Source of the DNA: Octopus vulgaris
Lineage: Eukaryota
Assembly (NCBI GenBank): GCA_951406725.2
Contig: OX597823.1
Coordinates: 75,082,001-75,146,000 of the forward strand
DNA length: 64,000 bases
Direction: 5' to 3'
Shown here: one piece after another, positions 12,290 through 57,798 of the stretch
Layout of the letters: every line of letters starts with the position of its first letter
Position numbering within the stretch: position 1 is the first letter of the stretch
Made by a program: the position numbers and the translations under genes
The notes under the pieces: generated by a model
What the model saw: only the letters and a program-made list of their open reading frames with translations
Database searches by the model: none
What the model was told of the DNA's origin: nothing

Positions 12290-12360
12290 TGTGTGTGTAT
12301 ACATATATGTGTGTGTATACATATATACAAATGTATATATATACATATATGTGGGTGTGT

Positions 12361-12702
12361 ATCATGCCTAAGGTATTTTTCGAATCTTCGGGAAAGAAGG
12401 CTGCGCTCTAAACTACTGCGCCATATGCCCATGTGCAATTAATACCGCTCCCATTATGCTACTCATATCTGCACTCGGTCTTGCTAGGAGGTTATTATGT
12501 GCTAGCATATGTGCTGCTTCTTTTAGTTTTCATATTTTCTCCGTCTATTATCTAAATTTTATCCTACAGGGAGAGGTGGCGTCCATTTTCCCATACATGA
12601 TCAGCTATACCCGTTTATATCAATATCTCCTCGTGTCAGAGCTAAGAACAAATATCCTTCAATTATTGTGCATAATTCCTCATCGCTCAAATATAGAACT
12701 GT
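12361..12702 (-). mobile_element. PLE 3' end (GIY-YIG C-terminus plus deleted tRNA-like module) joined to an inverted short copy of the family tail
   Basis: 12440-12650 is homologous to 27095-27300. 12361-12440 matches the CCTAAGGTATTTTTC segment and the tRNA-like head. 12657-12702 is the plus-strand tail ...CATAATTCCTCATCGCTCAAATATAGAACTGT. Confidence 0.75.
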
Positions 12703-13729: not shown

Positions 13730-14135
13730 AAGGAGTGCCTGTGTGGTAAGTAGCTTGCTTACCAACCACATGGTTCCGGGTTCAGTCCCACTTCGTGACA
13801 TCTTGAGCAAGTGTCTTATACTATAGCCTCGGGCCGACCAAAGCCTTGTGAGTGGATTTGGTATACGGAAACTGAAAGAAACCTGTCGTGTATATGTGTA
13901 TGCATCTGCGTGTGTGTTTATATGGCTGTGTTTGCCCCCCCCAACATCACTTGACAACCGATGCTGGTATGTTTACATCCCCGTTACCTAGCGGTTCGGC
14001 AAAAGAGACTGATAAAATAAGTGCTAGGCTTCCAACGAATAAGTCCTGGGGTTGATTTGCTCGACTAAAGGCGGTGCTCCAACATGCCCACAGTCAAACG
14101 ACTGAAACAAGTGAAAGAGTAAAAGAATAAAGAGA
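13730..14135 (+). mobile_element. tRNA-derived CORE-type SINE, near full length
   Basis: tRNA-like head with B-box GGTTCAGTCCC, CORE-like TCTTGAGCAAGTGTCTT, central (TG)n and an AAAGAGT/AAAGAAT tail; homologous to 57423-57798 and 23955-24662. Confidence 0.85.
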
Positions 14136-21625: not shown

Positions 21626-24198
21626 TTTGCATCAGTCCAACCTCTGAATATACATATCTTGGGTGTGACTAAAATTTACATCCGAAAGTGAGTCCTGCTT
21701 CTGGATTTCCAGGAATCGGAATTGTGAGGAATCACCGTGCACCCACTAATGTTCCAATATCTACTTCGACCCAGTGTAGTGTCAAAGGTCAGGGTCATGA
21801 CTGAAAGTAGATTAACATGTCAAGAAAGCATCCCCGCATGGTTATTCAGATAGCTTAAATAACTCCAATTAACACAAGATTTGTGGCTGATCTCCTAAGA
21901 AGTAGCATATGTTACAAATCATGAACTCTGATGGCTACTGGGTTTGTAATACTGCTTTCTACAGAGTTTGAAGAATAGAAGAGTAGAACTGTGCTGCACA
22001 AACCATGCCCAGGATAATCCTTTCCACCTTTCTTCTATAGGCACAGGGCCTGACTGTTTTGGATCCGTAGGCTATAGAAACGCGATATGCGTGCTTAGTC
22101 TTCCCCGTGTATATGGAAGAGTACTTTGCCGTAATTTCCAATTTTAAAGAATTATTTACAATTCTGAAACATACATAATGCATAAATTATTAACAATGAA
22201 TCGTGCGACGCATATTTCCTATTATTACTTTACTACAATATTAATTCAGAAAAACTTAACACCGAGCAGGTGAAGTGACCCGCTGGCAATCAGAATGTGT
22301 TTCAAAGTATTTTAAGAAAAAGACAAACTAATATTGAAAAGCAATTTAATGTTTATTATTATGAAAAATAAATAGTCGACTCTCCAAAAGAATTTTTGAA
22401 CACATTGATATTTTCAGGAATGCATATGAATGTAAATACAAGCGAAAAGACTTACGGTTTGCCACGAATCCTTATTTCGCCTAAGCTATGCTACTCAACT
22501 ATATTCATAATAGATGTATTAATGTCGCATTTTGTTAAAGACCAGATTCCTGCTGGATGCCCTAAGTATAAGAATTGTTATGTTTTTTGTAAAAATGTTA
22601 CCGTTACAAATATGTCTGAGATATATTGGTTAACTTATGAATGACATTCACTGCATTTTTTCATGGAGATAAAAGATCTCAAAGAGAAAAAAGAGCAAAC
22701 GCACCAACACAGTTTTCCCCGTTTTCTTCTATAGCAACAATTTTTCTCCATGACAAAGTACAGTGAACGGGCTTCCTACTAGTTCCAATAGGTCTCAAAT
22801 ATATTTGAACTGGTAAATCACTGCTTAGAGACTCTAAACACGTCTTTTACTGTTTTAGTATGAAGCCTCAAAAATTCTGTGATGTGAGTGGACGTCAATA
22901 CAAATTTGATACGAATCGGTCAAGGAGTTAAGAGAACATCATTAATAACATATAAAAGTCCTCATGTATTGTAATACATGTGATAAAACATACGGATGTG
23001 AGGCTGTGTGTGAGCATGTATACGGAAACGGTGTTTAAGTCTAAATTCACAGGGCGCTCTCTTTCTTAAAAGCTGGCATATTTTTCCATTCCTGCATTAT
23101 ATCATTTTCTTTTTGCCAAACTTTATTTACGGACATTTCACTTGTAAATTAAAATTTTGGTGATGTGAACTTTTCCACTATTTTTCAGTTTTTGTGAAAA
23201 TAATATATCATGTAAACATTATGTTCGAAATGATCGAATAAAACACTCAGCTAGTCTAAAACCCTTAACTCGATTTCTAATGCTTAAACTAAAATGTTTA
23301 CTTGCATAATTGTATGTGTGTGTGCACGCACATGTGTGCATTTGCTCTGGTTGTCTGCGTAGGTAAGTAATAAAAAAACGTTATTGAAAGGGATGCCTCC
23401 TGCGTATCATTGATTGATACCGTTACTAATGAAAAATATATTCCGCATGACGATAATTTCATTTTGAAATATATGGATTCATAAAGTATACTATTTACGA
23501 GACAAATCCAAATGGAAATGGGAAGTAGATCAGAGTTTCTGATAGGAGGAAATTTATGCATGGTGAGTGGCGCCTGTCTCTCACATAATTTTTTCGTTTA
23601 ATCGAAAAATTCAAAAGGCTAATCTATACATTCTCCTGCAAAGCACCAACGATCTGCATGTTAAAATTCTCCTTGCGCTAATTCTTTCGTATTTCGATGA
23701 TCAATAGAATTAGAGATTACTATGAGAGCAAGTCTCTGGTCTATAGTATTTTTCTTATTTCTTGAATACCTTCCGCCTTGTTGTTATTCATTTAAAAAGG
23801 AAAACACATACTCCAAACTGAACTAAATTCAACTAGCTTTATAGTGTTAACGAATTTTCTTCAGTAGTGAAATACACTTGTTTTCTTTAGGTCAACCACA
23901 TCTGCACACGCGCACACACATATATATGTATATGAATACATATATATCATTACACCGCGGCCATGTTGGAGCACCGACTTAAAGCATTTTTAGTCCAATG
24001 TATCGAACACAGTACTTATTCTATCAATCAATTTTAGTGAACTGATAAGTTACGTGGATAAGCACACCTGTACCGATTATCAAACGGTACGGAAGAACAA
24101 ACTCAGACACTAGTTACATTATATACATTGGACGGATATTTGTCCTCATCTTGTTTGTTGTTAATACAACGTTTCGGCTGATATGCACTTCAGCCCAC

Positions 24199-24271
24199 GG
24201 GCATAATGCGTAGTGGTTAAGAGCACGGGCTACTAACGCTAAGATTCCGAGTTCGACTCCAGGTAGCCACC
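24199..24271 (+). promoter_or_regulatory. tRNA-Arg(ACG)-like module with Pol III A and B boxes; not a functional tRNA
   Basis: A-box ATGCGTAGTGG at 24206-24216 (TGGCGTAGTGG in the 34.5-kb copy) and B-box GAGTTCGACTCC at 24249-24260. GGGC...TGG.TAA...CTAC...AGATTCC..GTTCGACTCC.GG follows eukaryotic tRNA-Arg(ACG); stems are imperfect. Confidence 0.75.
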
Positions 24272-24345
24272 TGAGTAATAATACTAATAATAACAACATT
24301 GAACATTACCTTAGGAATTAGTACCCAGTTTCGAAATTTCCCCAA

Positions 24346-24391
24346 GACACCTGAAGAAAGCTGGCGGGTATATCAGCCGAAACGTTGTGTT
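24346..24391 (+). ncRNA. Minimal type-I hammerhead ribozyme
   Basis: Stem I GACAC/GTGTT; core CTGAAGA at 24351-24357 plus an extra A; stem II GCTGG/TCAGC; GAAA at 24379-24382; palindromic stem III AACGTT; GUU cleavage triplet. Activity untested. Confidence 0.75.
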
Positions 24392-24661
24392 AACAACAAA
24401 CGGGATGAGGACAAATATCCATCGAATGTAAATAATGTACATAATCCCTCATCTATTAAATATAGAACAGTAACCGCAGGTACAATGGCACATATTCATA
24501 GATATATACAGATATACGACAAGCTTCTTTCCGTTTCCTTCTGTCAAATAAACTCACAAGTCGTTGTTTGGCTCGATGCTTCAGTAATAGACATTTGCCG
24601 AAGTTGCCACACAATAGGACTGACTCCGAACTATGTGGTTGGGAGGCAATCGCCTTACCAC

Positions 24662-24690
<29 letters not shown>

Positions 24691-26425: not shown

Positions 26426-26464
<39 letters not shown>

Positions 26465-26467
26465 AAT

Positions 26468-26794
26468 TTATTTACATTTTTACCGCTTTTTTCCGTTATC
26501 GGATTTATCAGTAAGTGGTTTTAATGTTAGATTTCTTAGCCTTTTTATATCTTAAGAAGTTTGTGGTATTTTTCAAGCAAGGGAGAAGAAACAAGAGAAA
26601 AATTGGAGAAGGAGGGGAGGTAAAAGTCACGCCTCTTTACCTCCCCTCTGTCGCAAAAATGTTTTCCTTTTTTCTTCTTCCTTGCTTGGCAAACCCCACA
26701 AAATTTTAATATATAAAAAGGCCAAAAAATCTACCTTTAAACAACTGCTTGATAAATCCCATAACGGACGAAAGCGCTAAAAAATGGTAAATAA
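26468..26794. mobile_element. ~330-bp fold-back (MITE-like) element
   Basis: 26468-26625 is an imperfect reverse complement of 26634-26794 (e.g. GAGGGGAGGTAAA/TTTACCTCCCCTC; GGATTTATCA/TGATAAATCC). Confidence 0.75.
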
Positions 26795-26856
26795 GATGTA
26801 AATATAAATATATAAAGTCTTCCAAAATTTTGCTTAACTTTATTATTCTATATAAT

Positions 26857-27305
26857 CGGATATTTATCACAACGCTTCAGCTGACATACGCTCTAGACTT
26901 CATCAGGTGTATTATGGAAATTCCGAAGGTATTTTTCGATGTTGTTGTTGTTCTTCTTATTATTATTAAGGTCAGTGTCTGGAATCGAACTCGGAATCTT
27001 GGGGAAAGTAGTTCTTAACCACAACTCCATCAGCCCGTGGGCAATTATGGAGTGAATTTTAGGGCTTATAAATCTAATATTTTCCTATCCTTCCTTAATA
27101 CCGGTCCCCATATGCTATTCATATCTGCACTCGGTCTGCTTAGGAGGTTGTTGTGTCCTAGCATATGTACACTTCTTTTAGTTTTCGTGTTTTTAGTAGT
27201 GTTCTCTGTCTATTATTTTAACTTCATCCCACAAAGGGGTGTCCATTTCTCCATACATGATCAGCTTTACTCGATTTATCAATATCTTCCCGTGTTACAG
27301 CTTTG
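26857..27305 (-). mobile_element. PLE 3' end: GIY-YIG C-terminus, stop, tRNA-like module, (AAT/AAC)n, hammerhead
   Basis: Minus strand gives DIDKSSKADHVWRNGH.LWDEVKIIDREHY...KLKE...MLGHNNLLSRPSADMNSIWGPVLRKDRKILDL*, then B-box GAGTTCGATTCC (~26993-26982) and CTGATGA...GAAGCGTT (26911-26866). Confidence 0.85.
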
Positions 27306-27499
27306 CGATTTTCTTCTACCCTTATTGGGGGTGGCATGTTTCGCCACAGATTCAACGAGTAACAAGAGCAAGAACAAAAGAGCAACAAAAGAGCAACAGA
27401 TGTTTCGCCACAGATGCAACAAGTAACAAGAGCAACAAAAAAATTACTAGTACAGCAAAAAAAAAAAATTATACAATAATTAATGAAGTGTAAGTCGAC

Positions 27500-33900: not shown

Positions 33901-34104
33901 GGCGTATGCTTGTAAATATTCTTATATGTATGCATAAATACATATATGCATATGCGTATGTACATATACGAATGGTGATGAAATAATCCTCGGTTTGGGC
34001 AAAAGAAGATACATGATGATTAGTTTATTATGTGAGAAAAACAGTAAATATCACTTTTATTGTAGTTTGCGTCTTTTCGTAAAAAGGAAACTAAATATAT
34101 GCAT

Positions 34105-34371
34105 TTCTATATTTCAGAGATGAGGAATTACGTGCATTATTTACATTATTTATATTATTTACATTCGACGGATATTTGTGGTCATCGTGTTTATTGTTAA
34201 CACAACGTTTTGCCTGATATATACTCAAGCATTCTTCAAGTGTCTTGGGGAAATTTCAAACCTGGGTTCTCCATCCTAAGGTATCTTTTGATGTTGTTGT
34301 TGTTATTATTATTATTATCATTATTATTATTATTATTATTATTATTACATTTGTTGTTGTAGTTGTTATTA

Positions 34372-34426
<55 letters not shown>

Positions 34427-34440
34427 CTTTGTTGTTGTTG

Positions 34441-34484
<44 letters not shown>

Positions 34485-34559
34485 TTTCAGATCACTGCTT
34501 GAAATCGAACTCGAAATCTTGGGATCAGTAGCCCCCGCGCTTAACCACTACGCCAAATG
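34105..34559 (-). mobile_element. tRNA-head/hammerhead short element, head to tail, with expanded (AAT)n
   Basis: Minus strand: TGGCGTAGTGGTTAAG, GAGTTCGATTTC, ~190-bp (AAT/AAC)n, degenerate hammerhead at 34244-34199, tail TAATTCCTCATCTCTGAAATATAGAA. Confidence 0.85.
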
Positions 34560-36479: not shown

Positions 36480-38214
36480 GAGTTTATTTATCCTAGGAGA
36501 GCTGCCTTCCCAACAGCTAAAACTGATGGGAATTTCATGACAAAATCGGTGAACTGTTAACGGAAATCTACATAGTATATATAACAGATATACACAAACT
36601 TATAGTCTGCGCAGCCCTTGTAGATGTGCACACCATTGAGATTGAAGTGACTAAAAACGCAGGACATACTGTCGTGGTGGAAAGAAAGAGATGAGAATCA
36701 AACTGAATGGCTCAAAATAGATCCTGGACGCATGAATGCAATCATAAAAAAGAAGTGGACGACGGAAACACACAGGAATGAATTGCAAAGGAAACACAGC
36801 ATAAAACAAAACGGACTGTAAACTGTTAACGCATGAATACAGCGAAAAATAAAAGCACAAACGGGTAAAAACAAGACAGATACAGGAAGAGAACAAATCA
36901 GTAGCAGCAGAAGTAACACTTCAACAACGAAAGAAAATATTATGAACATCTTAATAAAGAAGATCAGGGAAATGACATACCAGAGCCTGAATGAGCACGA
37001 AAATCCTAAGTAGAAATTTGGAGCTAAGATGTTCAACATAATATAAAGTTGACTAGTTACAGGAATTACAAAGAGGTATAGAAGATGGATATACATAAGA
37101 AAATATAACTATTGCGGATAAGACAGTTCAACAAGTGAAGCAGAAAAACAAATTGGGATGCTCCCGACCAAGATGGTGTCCAGGGATTGTGGCGCAAAAT
37201 CCTCCTAAGTATACACAGGTGGTATATACGACTGTTTTTTTACTGACTGCATAGAAAATACACCACTAACATTGATGAGAAGTGTAAGGATTGTGTTGTA
37301 ACAGGAGGAGAAAGAAAAATGAGGTCCAGTAAGCAATTATAAACCTACAACATGCATAACGTCATTCTGAAAACTATTAACTGTCGTCACAACCAATGAC
37401 GTATATAATTTACTGGAAAATGAGGATCCACTGCCGGGGAGGCAAAGATTGATGTAGGAAGAAATGAAGGGAAAATACTACATAGAGAGACCAGAATCGC
37501 TAGGTAACGTGAAAATACGCAGGGGCATTGTTCAAGGACATTTCCTCTCACCGTTCCTCCCGCCAACAAATTTACCGAGAAAATCCAAGCCTGCCTATGA
37601 GTTTATCAAAACCAGTATTAGAGTAAACCTGTATATACAAAAAATTAGACCGACCTAGAATCTTTAATCCAACCAGTGAGAGTATTCATTATAGACATTG
37701 GAATGCAGTTTGGAGTAGATAAGTGCGCAGTACCTTGAAGAGAGGGTGTAAGATAACGCCTGATGGTATGATATTATCAGAAAGCATCATCATTAGATTT
37801 ATGTGGAATATTGAGGGATACAGATGTCTAGGAGTATTGCAATAAGAGAAGATAAGGGAAATTGGAATGAGAGAAAAATTAACTTAAGAATAGAAAAGGA
37901 AAATTCTGAAGAGGTTCGCAACCAAATAGAATGAAGAGAATATCTTGACTAGAGCACTTCGGTTATTTATTGATGAGCGATTAGAAGATGAAGTTTACTT
38001 AAGCGACATACTGCTTATAATAATGCAGGGAAAATAAATTGTATAAAATTAAAAGAGCAGAGAAGGTCTCAGTGAAACCCCAGAGGGATACATATATCTA
38101 GGAGTATTGCAATAAGAGAAGATAAGGGAAACTGGAATGAGAGAAAAATTCACTTAAGAATAGAAAAGGAAAATTCGGAAGGGGTTCGCAACCAAATAGA
38201 ATGAAGAGTATATC
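36480..38214 (+). mobile_element. Decayed R4/Dong-like (RLE) LINE, RT region
   Basis: WWKER, RYRKRTNQ, NWDAPDQDGVQGLW, SNYKPTTC..F*KLLT, VKIRRGIVQGHFLSP, IDIGMQFGVDKCAV and GYRCLGVL occur in the correct order. Confidence 0.8.
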
Positions 38215-39765
38215 AGTATACCGTTTCAAACTAACGGAACAGATTTATGAAGACGAAACAGAGGCTGTGATTACAAATAAGAATTACAAGAACTTGTGGG
38301 GCTTCGCCATAAGGGCTAACTCTATAATATAGGCATTCGGTACTAATAATAAGAATCATGCATTATATTCAAGTAGCCTAATATATCTTAATATTATTAA
38401 TACATAAATCCGATCATATATTATATACTTTTCGATGCTCTTAGTTCTCACAACACAAAATGATGACTGTAATTTTATATAATTCATAAATTTTGTAATT
38501 TATATTCCAATAATTTTATTCAGTCAGATTCTGGCCTTAGGTGATATCTTTATATCTGCTTCATCATCCATAGTTATGGCTTTTATAATTCTTTAATCAA
38601 TTCGTTATAATACTATACATTCTTTTAACATTTACTGCCATTTATGACCTGAAATATTTGTTATGATTCTTCTCAATTCTGTTAATATTTTCTTAATAGT
38701 TCCCATAATTTTTAAATATCTAGACTATTTATGGAACCTATTTGCTTTGTTCTCAATTACAATGTATCAATATTGGATAATAGAGACTGTGAGATTCAAG
38801 GGGTTTCAATTTTTTGGCAGGGGTGTCGGAGGAGTGGTAGAATATCGTTTCTGCTTTTCTTTCTTTATCAATTCTGGTCTTGCAGCTCGTTACTTCATTA
38901 TATCAATAAAACAGATTTCTCTAAATTTCCGTATTTATCCAACATAAATTTATATCTCTATTTATTACGTAAAATATTTACACATGTGTTTGTTGTCTAT
39001 GTCAATGCCATTTTCCTGTGAATTCTGTTAATCACTTCCACTAATAGAATTATCTCATTATGTTTCTATTTAATTATTCATTTACCATCGCTGTTGGTAC
39101 TGTGATTATCTCTATCTTTATATATTCATCATTGTTATTTTCCTTCAACTCTTTCTATTCCCACGCTCTCCTCTGGAGTTTCACTGAGACCTTCTCTGTT
39201 CTCTTAATTTTTTACAAGTTATTTTCCCTGCATTATTATAAGCAGTATGTCGCTTAAGTAAACTTCATCTTCTAATCGCTCATCAATAAATAACCGAAGT
39301 GCTCTAATCAACATGAATTATGTAAGTGAAAAAGCAATGCTGTAATATCTTAAGCCTGTCATTACACTACAAGGTATAAAACAGTAAGTGTTTTTTTTCA
39401 GAAATTTTACAGCTACTGTCTTCAAATGTGTTTTAACATATTCAAATACCATGCTTGCCATTTGTCTGTTGTTTAATAAAACATTTCAGTGCTCTTCTAG
39501 GTGGTGTATTTGGTACGCTTGGTAAATCGTGAGTTGGCAAACATGTTGCACTATCGTATGCATGCGTGCATATAGTTTAACTGAGTGTACTGTGTGTGCG
39601 TCATAATAAAGACACTGGCTGAAATAATATTACAATATCCCCCATTTGAAATTTCTTGTTATATACACACATTCACACACACACATATATCTGTGTATTT
39701 ATGTATATCTATGCATACCTATCTATCTATCTATATATCTATCAATCTATCTATCTATCTATCTA

Positions 39766-52277: not shown

Positions 52278-52428
52278 TTATTTACATTTTTTACATTATT
52301 TACATTTGACGGATATTTGCCCTCATCTTGTCTATTGTTAACACAACTTTTCGTCTGATATACCCTCCAGCCTTCATCAGGTGACTTGGAGAAATTTCGA
52401 ACCTGGGTTCTCATTCCTAAGGTATTTT

Positions 52429-52495
<67 letters not shown>

Positions 52496-52537
52496 CATTA
52501 TTATTATTACTTAGGTCAATGACCTGAATAATTATGA

Positions 52538-52568
<31 letters not shown>

Positions 52569-52596
52569 ACTGGTGAGGATGTTGATGATGATTATG

Positions 52597-52665
<69 letters not shown>

Positions 52666-52868
52666 GTAATAATAATAACGAAAAATACCTTAAGAATGAG
52701 AACCCAGGTTCGAAATTTCCCCAAGACACCTGACGAAGACTGGAGTGTATATCAGCCGAAACCTTGTGTTAACAATAAGCAAGATGGGGACAAATATCCG
52801 TCAAATGTAAATAACGTAAACAATCTAAAAAAATTATACAATTCCCCATCTCTTAAATATAGAACTGT
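52278..52868. mobile_element. Divergent inverted pair of the hammerhead element, tail on the right copy only
   Basis: 52278-52518 is inverted against 52520-52830. Hammerheads at 52385-52340 (-) and 52725-52770 (+); tail ATTCCCCATCTCTTAAATATAGAACTG. Confidence 0.85.
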
Positions 52869-57422: not shown

Positions 57423-57798
57423 AGGCGCAAGAGTGTCTGAGTGGTGTGTAGCGTGATTACCAACCATACGGTCCAGGGATGAGACCAATGCATATCACCC
57501 TGGGCAAGTGTCTTCTACTATACCCTCGGACTGACCAAAGCTTTCTGAGTGGATTTGGTAGACGGAAACTGTAAGAAACCCGTCGCATATATGTGTGTGT
57601 GTTTCCAACACACCATCGCCTAATAACTGATGGTAGTATGTCCACGTCCCTGTAATTTTGCGCTTTGGCAAAAGACCCGAGAGAATAGGTACTGGGCTTA
57701 CAAAGAATAATTCCCGGGGTAGACTTGTTCGAATAACGGCAGTGCTCCAGCATGACTGTAGTCAAAATTACTGAAACGAACAAACTAATAAAAGAATA
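57423..57798 (+). mobile_element. CORE-type tRNA SINE, full length, diverged
   Basis: AGGCGCAAGAGTG...CCCTGGGCAAGTGTCTTCTACTATA...GGATTTGGTAGACGGAAACTG...GTGCTCCAGCATG; colinear with 13730-14135. Confidence 0.8.

What the first reader, a model, noticed from the sequence alone, without database searches (positions are those of the whole stretch)
26857..27305. The tRNA-like Pol III module sits inside the PLE itself, just after the GIY-YIG stop codon
Seen: on the minus strand a GIY-YIG C-terminus (KS..ADHVW..GH..WDEVKII.RE...KLKE...) ends at a TAA near 27067. About 30 nt later come the tRNA-like head, (AAT/AAC)n and the hammerhead. An independent copy at 12361-12650 shows the same GIY-YIG-to-tRNA linkage, so it is not a chance nested insertion. 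Inference: an autonomous PLE captured a tRNA gene or SINE head in its pLTR. This could act as an internal promoter for the downstream copy in partial-tandem arrays and as the source of the short elements.
Basis: partly seen in the sequence, partly recalled or inferred. Interest (0 to 1): 0.75.

Follow-up and report, generated by a model that had tools for sequence, protein, structure and literature searches.

The report
Penelope retrotransposon with built-in tRNA promoter
This is a decayed piece of a protein-coding jumping gene whose end repeat starts with a tRNA-derived sequence, and most short copies of the family begin right at that sequence, so the element likely uses the cell's tRNA-making polymerase to start its own RNA, something I did not find described for a protein-coding retrotransposon.

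Summary
Confirmed. The window holds the dead 3' end of a Penelope/Poseidon-type retrotransposon: GIY-YIG end, TAA at 27068-27066, tRNA(Arg)-like head 29 nt later, (AAY)n, mutated hammerhead. The head is a fixed part of the family. All 30 of 50 RT-anchored loci that reach the stop continue into it (28 with at least 30 nt). Whole-genome 20-mer counts fall five-fold across the head's 5' end (5148 to 1027) and stay flat further up (943). 49 of 66 copies reaching the head start end within 29 nt (4.6 expected). Short and long copies are equally diverged, with no diagnostic variants, so the short forms are products of the autonomous element, not a separate SINE. Best reading (0.6): the A/B boxes start the element's RNA by Pol III. 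Cautions: a head-less PLE of this genome also clusters 5' ends in its pLTR (9 of 24), other PLEs carry 5' palindromes, and there is no RNA evidence. The ORF's majority state has no T4 run (expected 2.3-4.3, P 0.006-0.09), a hint of Pol III read-through. Eight literature searches found no precedent. The scan noted this family before on other DNA of this genome (e1-8669850, e1-8663237).

The parts
27066..27345 (-). 5'-truncated, frame-shifted C-terminus of the PLE ORF (second half of the GIY-YIG domain), stop TAA at 27068-27066
   Evidence: family ORF with RT upstream in L029, L030, L044
27037..27065 (-). 29-nt spacer. Its last 14 nt form an imperfect hairpin with the first 10 nt of the head; a TATAA overlaps the stop codon
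   Evidence: sequence directly; 90-100% conserved among 32 anchored copies
26970..27036 (-). tRNA(Arg)-like head: A box 27029-27019 (damaged here, intact in the family majority), B box 26992-26981
   Evidence: 47 bits to the family head profile
26941..26968 (-). (AAT/AAG/AAC)n tract, variable in length between copies
26868..26909 (-). minimal type I hammerhead, core mutated in this copy; intact copies fold with stems I and II and a palindromic stem III
26857..26867 (-). remnant of the pLTR 3' end
12357..12643 (-). second ORF-end-to-head copy; deletion over the stop, head broken before the B box; an inverted tail arm lies next to it at 12644-12700 (+)
24107..24477 (+). short copy starting at the head (24199) with hammerhead and tail, preceded by an inverted arm
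34102..34559 (-). short copy starting at head +4, long (AAY)n, hammerhead, tail
52278..52867 (.). head-to-head pair of pLTR arms joined in the (AAY)n tract, without heads

Best explanation
[quoted passage not shown] Shown: the order ORF stop, 29 nt, head, (AAY)n, hammerhead, tail in all copies that reach the stop; partial tandems in which the tail runs into the ORF start; two preferred 3' ends about 34 nt apart; head-to-head inverted arms; a strong pile-up of 5' ends at the head start. Inferred, from the in vitro work on Poseidon_Ac: the protein binds RNA that reads from a pLTR into the ORF start, nicks both DNA strands and starts reverse transcription inside the RNA at the two tail sites. Copying back from the first pLTR-ORF junction runs off the RNA's 5' end after about 250-400 nt. 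This gives the many SINE-like short arms as by-products, and two such arms anneal by their ends to give inverted pairs. Copying from a downstream junction gives ORF-containing copies. A 5'-truncated upstream copy that keeps the head would keep its promoter, so a minimal partial tandem would be enough for expression.
For: 30 of 30 RT-anchored loci reaching the stop continue into the head; none has another 3' UTR. Exact 20-mer counts: hammerhead 8740, head 5148, just upstream of the head 1027, endonuclease 943; retention in 24 long copies 9, 9, 14 and 14 of 24, so the corrected step is about 8-fold. Breakpoints of 83 head hits: 37 of 66 at +5..-9, 12 more at -10..-24, then 0.14-0.39% per nt; 4.6 expected, P about 1e-42. 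29 of 30 loci picked by a 46-nt head pattern also start near the head. The mode of ends is -7..+4, past the apex of the hairpin, where a short pre-tRNA leader would start (leader length recalled). Non-CpG divergence, long vs short: head 3.5% vs 3.9%, downstream pLTR 5.1% vs 4.9%, no fixed diagnostic site. All 11 strong head hits in the scanned sample sit in the PLE. A and B boxes match the consensus while the acceptor stem is broken. No T4 run in the majority state of 789 codons or of the pLTR; 0.44 T4 per kb against 10.8 A4 per kb in 78 kb of aligned copies. PMC11167929: internal RT starts flanking the tail, the first 172 nt of the ORF needed on the template, both strands extended.
Against: No RNA or ChIP evidence. 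A young Neptune-type PLE of the same genome without a head also clusters 5' ends in its pLTR (9 of 24 at -71..-83, 5 at one base), so a pile-up alone does not point to Pol III. Only its position at tRNA +1 and its size (74% vs 38%) do. Adineta pLTRs carry 18-38 bp palindromes at their 5' ends, read there as self-priming (PMC3846280), and this pLTR starts in a hairpin too. A TATAA lies about 28 nt upstream of the modal start and a TCACT at -20..-16, and about four copies start near -20, which would fit Pol II. In upstream pLTRs of partial tandems the ends are spread: of 4 that reach the head start, 2 stop there and 2 run into the ORF. The T4 signal is weak: single natural copies gave P 0.63, 0.18, 0.02 and 0.87, the Markov control gave P 0.09, and the sense strand is A-rich anyway. 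The 83 hits include three insertions counted by both arms and two look-alike pairs.
Confidence: 0.6

Rival explanations
1. The head is a passenger. The RNA 5' end is set by an ordinary Pol II promoter at the pLTR boundary, or the pile-up comes from PLE self-priming at the boundary palindrome. The tRNA-like piece was captured there and never acted as a promoter.
For: A head-less PLE of the same genome also has a 5'-end cluster. 5' palindromes occur in Adineta pLTRs, and TATA/Inr-like motifs in Pen2a. TATAA and TCACT lie upstream of the head here. Many junctions are perfect palindromes centred on the hairpin. PLE starts mapped in the literature are Pol II type with introns.
Against: The wall coincides with tRNA +1 within about 10 nt of a roughly 190-nt UTR. 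Copies joined directly to flank, or to inverted arms ending in the tail or hammerhead, also start at the head, so fold-back is not required. A hairpin stall would leave ends at +10 or later, not at -3..-7 (inference). TATAA is lost from tandems that begin at the head (L101, L120).
Confidence: 0.28
2. The tRNA-like fold is a processing signal: RNase P or a related activity cuts a longer Pol II transcript at head +1 and so creates the discrete 5' end.
For: A share of ends lies at +1..+4. tRNA-like processing signals in long RNAs are known (recalled, MALAT1 type).
Against: The modal ends keep 3-7 nt upstream of +1. The acceptor stem is mismatched and ARAGORN/Rfam do not call the head even in good copies L062 and L087.
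Confidence: 0.07
3. The short forms are an independent PLE-mobilised SINE with its own master copies, and the autonomous element picked up the head from it by recombination or template switch.
For: Short arms outnumber ORF ends about 5-8 to 1. Many short copies carry a perfected palindrome that the long element lacks. One internally deleted form recurs (L094, L098).
Against: Equal divergence and no diagnostic variants between 40 long and 87 short segments. In Poseidon_Ac a template needs ORF sequence beyond the tail, which short copies lack.
Confidence: 0.05

Closest known systems
Penelope/Poseidon PLEs, e.g. Poseidon_Ac of Anolis (PMC11167929; passages and section 3 part 1 of 2 read) and Adineta Pen2a (PMC3846280; passages read)
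   Same: RT plus C-terminal GIY-YIG with CCHH, no linker zinc finger, pLTR partial tandems, inverted 5' arms, optional 30-40 nt tail, hammerhead in the pLTR, ORF start overlapping the pLTR, palindrome at the pLTR 5' end
   Different: The pLTR begins with a tRNA-derived A/B-box head. Described PLE promoters are Pol II type or putative TATA/Inr; 'tRNA' does not occur in PMC3846280, and its one occurrence in PMC8557442 concerns selenocysteine.
TRIMp3: Cassandra, Helenus, Ajax (Kojima 2024, PMC10886601; passages read)
   Same: Small-RNA-derived Pol III promoter inside a terminal repeat, regenerated with each copy
   Different: Those are non-autonomous LTR elements with PBS/PPT. The paper argues that their autonomous partners must use Pol II. 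Here the head sits in a protein-coding PLE.
Schistosoma SINE-like hammerhead repeats (via review PMC6765202; passages read; name Sm-alpha recalled)
   Same: Pol III promoter followed by a hammerhead; the upstream unit drives the downstream unit in tandems
   Different: Non-coding, no ORF; no linked autonomous PLE is described in the passages read
Animal non-LTR retrozymes (bioRxiv 10.64898/2026.07.22.740005; part 1 of 5 and passages read) and min-HHRs of PLEs (PMC4209133; parts 1-2 of 4 read)
   Same: pLTR-related short sequences with a type I minimal hammerhead, mobilised by PLEs
   Different: Retrozymes are tandem monomer arrays; 'tRNA' and 'promoter' do not occur in that preprint. The short forms here are dispersed single or inverted arms of the same age as the coding element.
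tRNA-Arg-derived mollusc SINEs (PMC4758252; passages read; cites octopus OR2, Ohshima and Okada 1994, which I did not see)
   Same: tRNA-Arg-like head with A and B boxes
   Different: Bodies and tails are LINE-related. The free tRNA SINEs sampled from this genome score 14 bits or less against this head.

Membership tests
EN+ PLE, Penelope/Poseidon clade | RT domain in one long ORF | tested here: met
   RVT_1 E 3.3e-11 for L030; 569-aa open frame in L044; weak TERT matches of the profile
EN+ PLE, Penelope/Poseidon clade | [quoted passage not shown] | tested here: met
   Motif seen in copies; invariant Y, Y, E, H, H in 65 rows; model pLDDT 89.9, top match I-TevI prob 0.95, TM 0.76 on target but E 0.4; Pfam GIY-YIG hits homologue P0069 but not the family's own copies
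EN+ PLE, Penelope/Poseidon clade | No extra zinc finger between RT and EN (present in Neptune and Nematis, PMC8557442 section 3) | tested here: met
   Absent in L044 and L029; present in the control family L411
EN+ PLE, Penelope/Poseidon clade | pLTR partial tandems, inverted 5' arms, 30-40 nt tail, hammerhead in the pLTR | tested here: met
   Tail-to-ORF junctions (query selected for them); 43 of 83 head hits flagged with an inverted arm; 3' ends of 132 arms: 64 short, 54 with tail, 6 into the ORF, 8 neither
EN+ PLE, Penelope/Poseidon clade | Placement with named Poseidon references in an RT tree | tested here: inconclusive
   Tree of 25 unnamed rows: family groups with P0001, P0002, P0152, P0176 (100/100) and apart from the Neptune-type L411; no named references were in the tree
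tRNA-derived SINE | tRNA-derived head with A and B boxes | tested here: met
   49-51 of 73 nt to this genome's tRNA-Arg genes, above 200 shuffles; other isotypes 38-47 (10 tRNAs compared, Arg-ACG and Arg-CCG not among them)
tRNA-derived SINE | Transcribed by Pol III | not testable with these tools
   Only indirect: 5'-end pile-up and T4 absence
tRNA-derived SINE | Separate non-autonomous lineage that shares only a tail with its partner | tested here: not met
   Whole short unit is part of the coding element; equal divergence, no diagnostic variants
TRIMp3 (Cassandra, Helenus, Ajax) | Non-coding, two true LTRs, PBS and PPT | tested here: not met
   Coding PLE with pLTR tandems and inversions
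Non-LTR retrozyme | Tandem array of non-coding hammerhead monomers | tested here: not met
   Copies are single arms, inverted pairs or partial tandems with ORF sequence
Functional tRNA gene | Cloverleaf with intact acceptor stem and T-run terminator | tested here: not met
   ARAGORN 0 genes in the window; no Rfam tRNA match in the window, L062 or L087; no T4 in the pLTR

The most novel reading that the evidence does not exclude
An autonomous, protein-coding retrotransposon whose whole RNA is made by RNA polymerase III. The captured tRNA promoter replaced the Pol II promoter, the 2.4-kb ORF lost its T-run terminators, the uncapped RNA is translated from a start inside the pLTR with the hammerhead in the coding frame, and the same transcript yields both full copies and more than ten thousand SINE-like arms. 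It would be a LINE-SINE pair in one molecule and a route by which SINE-like elements arise inside their own autonomous partner.
Probability: 0.28. Interest if true: 0.85.

Novelty: new variant of a known kind. Interest (0 to 1): 0.62.

Why it matters
Pol III promoters in retroelements are known from non-coding parasites (SINEs, TRIMp3, schistosome hammerhead repeats); coding partners are assumed to need Pol II. A coding PLE with a fixed tRNA promoter would break that division. It also gives a direct test of where PLE transcripts start and of how solo pLTR fragments arise, both open questions. In practice, thousands of these arms look like a tRNA SINE to annotation tools but are ends of a PLE. 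The promoter function is still an inference.

Tried and rejected
ARAGORN and Rfam found neither tRNA nor hammerhead in the window (only microsatellite-driven miRNA matches). Pfam GIY-YIG did not hit family copies. The sequencing-run search was made with the wrong stretch of L058, mostly an unrelated repeat plus about 80 nt of an inverted pLTR arm: no RNA holder listed, which is no evidence either way. Laying four runs on that stretch showed deep cover of the pLTR tail part in contigs labelled organisms C, D and E, but the stop-to-head junction was not tested in other species. Viral contigs held no relative. Thirty metagenome relatives were at most 45% identical; 12 of them scanned with Rfam showed no tRNA, but that scan also misses this family's own head, so it says little. 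DNA of the closest relatives (P0001, P0152, P0176) was not available. An apparent cluster of ORF breakpoints about 232 nt into the ORF coincides with the end of my query and with microhomology to the hammerhead, so I rejected it as a feature. A 38-47 nt intron in the tail was considered: it would put the hammerhead ATG in frame, but it is very short, and relatives keep an open unspliced frame there; left open. The Neptune-type family is not a matched control for T-runs because its sense strand is T-rich (13-26 T4 per ORF). Chance nested insertion was rejected (30 of 30). Literature searches without a precedent for a tRNA head in a PLE pLTR. Repbase reports, subscription journals and supplements were not seen and may hold an annotation of this family.

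Full report
Observation. On the minus strand the window reads: frame-shifted endonuclease C-terminus (27345-27066), TAA at 27068-27066, 29 nt, a tRNA-like head (27036-26970), (AAY)n (26968-26941) and a hammerhead (26909-26868). This copy is dead: the A box is damaged, about 8 nt of the head are lost and the ribozyme core reads GAAG for GAAA. The second copy (12643-12357, 77% over 215 nt) joins endonuclease to head, but across a deletion that removes the stop, and it breaks off before the B box. Three further short insertions lie in the window. The window is G000:C10:75082001-75146000 in a 2.8-Gb animal genome. Earlier scan notes call the host octopus-like; I did not establish this.

The element. 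The best 30 genomic matches extend upstream into an RT (RVT_1 E 3.3e-11) and a GIY-YIG domain with the PLE CCHH pattern. The window peptide matches relatives' C-termini. A model of the domain (pLDDT 89.9) has I-TevI and T4 EndoII as top-ranked folds, with high probability for I-TevI but E 0.4. There is no linker zinc finger, which by PMC8557442 (section 3 read) points to Penelope/Poseidon. A tree of 25 unnamed rows groups the family with P0001, P0002, P0152 and P0176. All copies seen are decayed; the longest open frame among 150 RT matches was 569 aa.

Is the head part of the element? I picked loci by RT protein, not by the head: 50 distinct loci, 30 reach the stop. All 30 continue into the head: 28 with at least 30 nt, one with an internal deletion, one for 5 nt before an (AAT)n tract. 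The other 20 break off earlier. Conversely, all 11 strong head hits in the window, 60 evenly spaced 10-kb stretches and 43 other loci lie in the PLE. The best outside hit is a real tRNA-Arg(TCG) gene at 15 bits, and the genome's free tRNA SINEs score lower. Of 83 head hits, 12 lack a downstream pLTR word; most break at the (AAT)n tract into other sequence, with no shared tail beyond one near-identical pair and one other repeat seen twice. Among 10 tRNA genes compared, the head is closest to the two Arg genes (49 and 51 of 73 nt).

Structure of insertions. A query across the tail-to-ORF junction returned partial tandems. Copies end at two sites about 34 nt apart (64 short, 54 with tail, 6 running into the ORF, 8 neither, of 132 arms). 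About half have an inverted arm in front (43 of 83 by a word test). An intact hammerhead folds as a minimal type I motif with a palindromic stem III, as described in PMC4209133 (parts 1-2 of 4 read). All of this is ordinary PLE anatomy.

Where copies start. Exact 20-mer counts over the whole genome are 8740 (hammerhead), 5148 (head +30..+49), 1027 (-38..-19) and 943 (about -190). Retention of these words in 24 long copies is 9, 9, 14 and 14, so the step across the head's 5' end is about 8-fold, and roughly 14,000 arms carry the head against about 1,700 ORF ends (rough, biased to well-kept copies). I fetched 80 regions from the first 100 listed places and mapped 83 hits: 17 end inside the head, 37 at +5..-9, 12 at -10..-24 (mostly palindromic junctions), 17 run further up. 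That is 49 of 66 in 29 nt against 4.6 expected from the upstream rate. An independent set gave 29 of 30. By eye none of 30 hammerhead-anchored loci showed the stop region upstream. Short and long copies have the same divergence and no diagnostic sites.

Mechanism. Poseidon_Ac starts reverse transcription inside its RNA at two sites that flank the tail, needs the first 172 nt of the ORF on the template, and extends both DNA strands (PMC11167929). If that holds here (inference), short arms cannot be their own templates. They are copied from RNA that reads from a pLTR into an ORF start, and their 5' ends mark that RNA's 5' end. That end lies at tRNA +1 with a few nt of leader, where an A/B-box promoter would put it. 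The boxes are intact in the family majority while the acceptor stem is not. The majority state of 789 codons has no T4 run: expected 3.0 by synonymous shuffle (P 0.027), 4.25 with Phe at the rate of other NNY codons (P 0.006), 2.3 by a Markov model (P 0.09). Relatives at 40-45% identity have 5-14. This is a hint of Pol III read-through, no more.

Against. A young Neptune-type PLE of the same genome has no head, yet 9 of 24 copies at risk start within 13 nt in its pLTR, 5 at one base, with the rest spread over 1.5 kb. So a pile-up marks an RNA end in PLEs generally and does not name the polymerase. Adineta pLTRs have 5' palindromes and TATA/Inr-like motifs (PMC3846280); this pLTR starts in a hairpin and has TATAA about 28 nt upstream of the modal start. 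Upstream pLTRs of tandems show no clear wall in a small sample (2 of 4). Single natural copies do not show T4 depletion consistently. I have no RNA data and no DNA of close relatives.

Comparison with what is known. It is a member of the EN+ PLEs by every feature tested. The short arms work like a SINE but fail the test of a separate lineage. The nearest concepts are TRIMp3 (PMC10886601), where the author argues that autonomous partners must use Pol II, and the schistosome Pol III-hammerhead repeats (PMC6765202); both are non-coding. Searches found no tRNA head in a PLE pLTR; Repbase reports, subscription papers and supplements were out of reach. Two earlier notes of this scan describe the same family on other DNA of this genome and reach a similar reading. 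They are not independent support; one gave me the two PLE papers.

Verdict. The architecture is real and fixed in the family (about 0.97). Pol III start at the head 0.6; passenger with Pol II start or palindrome self-priming 0.28; processing 0.07; separate SINE 0.05. New variant of a known kind; interest 0.62.

Noticed in passing
L104, L111, L120 (about 1400-1600 oriented); P0003, P0135, P0029, P0119: An ATG just after the (AAY)n tract opens a frame through the hammerhead and tail into the main ORF. Relatives P0003 and P0135 keep the same frame with matching residues, while more distant relatives start at a Met just before the conserved RYG, where this family has Leu. The ribozyme would lie inside coding sequence; in Poseidon_Ac the ATG lies in the ribozyme itself.
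   Followed up: partly
window 27050-27027; family junction: The 14 nt before the head are an imperfect inverted copy of its first 10 nt, like the head-to-head junctions of short pairs. This may be a fixed trace of the capture event.
   Followed up: partly
L094 and L098, about 1470-2000 oriented: Two copies share one internal deletion that joins the first 232 nt of the ORF to the head start, plus private variants. This may be a replicated non-autonomous form that keeps the ORF start needed for protein binding.
   Followed up: no
L411-L416, L417-L446: A young Neptune-type PLE with open frames up to 1214 aa, a T/C-rich sense strand, (TA)n targets, 3084 exact hammerhead words and a sharp 5'-end cluster 77 nt before the hammerhead word, possibly its transcription start.
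   Followed up: partly
window 26449-26814: A 370-bp imperfect palindrome (78%) right after the focal copy; no other match in the sampled loci.
   Followed up: partly
window 13733-14129, 24504-24664, 57431-57798; many sampled loci: At least three abundant free tRNA-derived SINE families with heads unrelated to the PLE head.
   Followed up: no
L069, L077, L227, L264, L326, L349: Another repeat is repeatedly inserted into the (AAT)n tract of this pLTR.
   Followed up: no
window 37813-38214 and 39170-39314: Near-identical direct and inverted duplications of 130-145 bp (about 95%).
   Followed up: no
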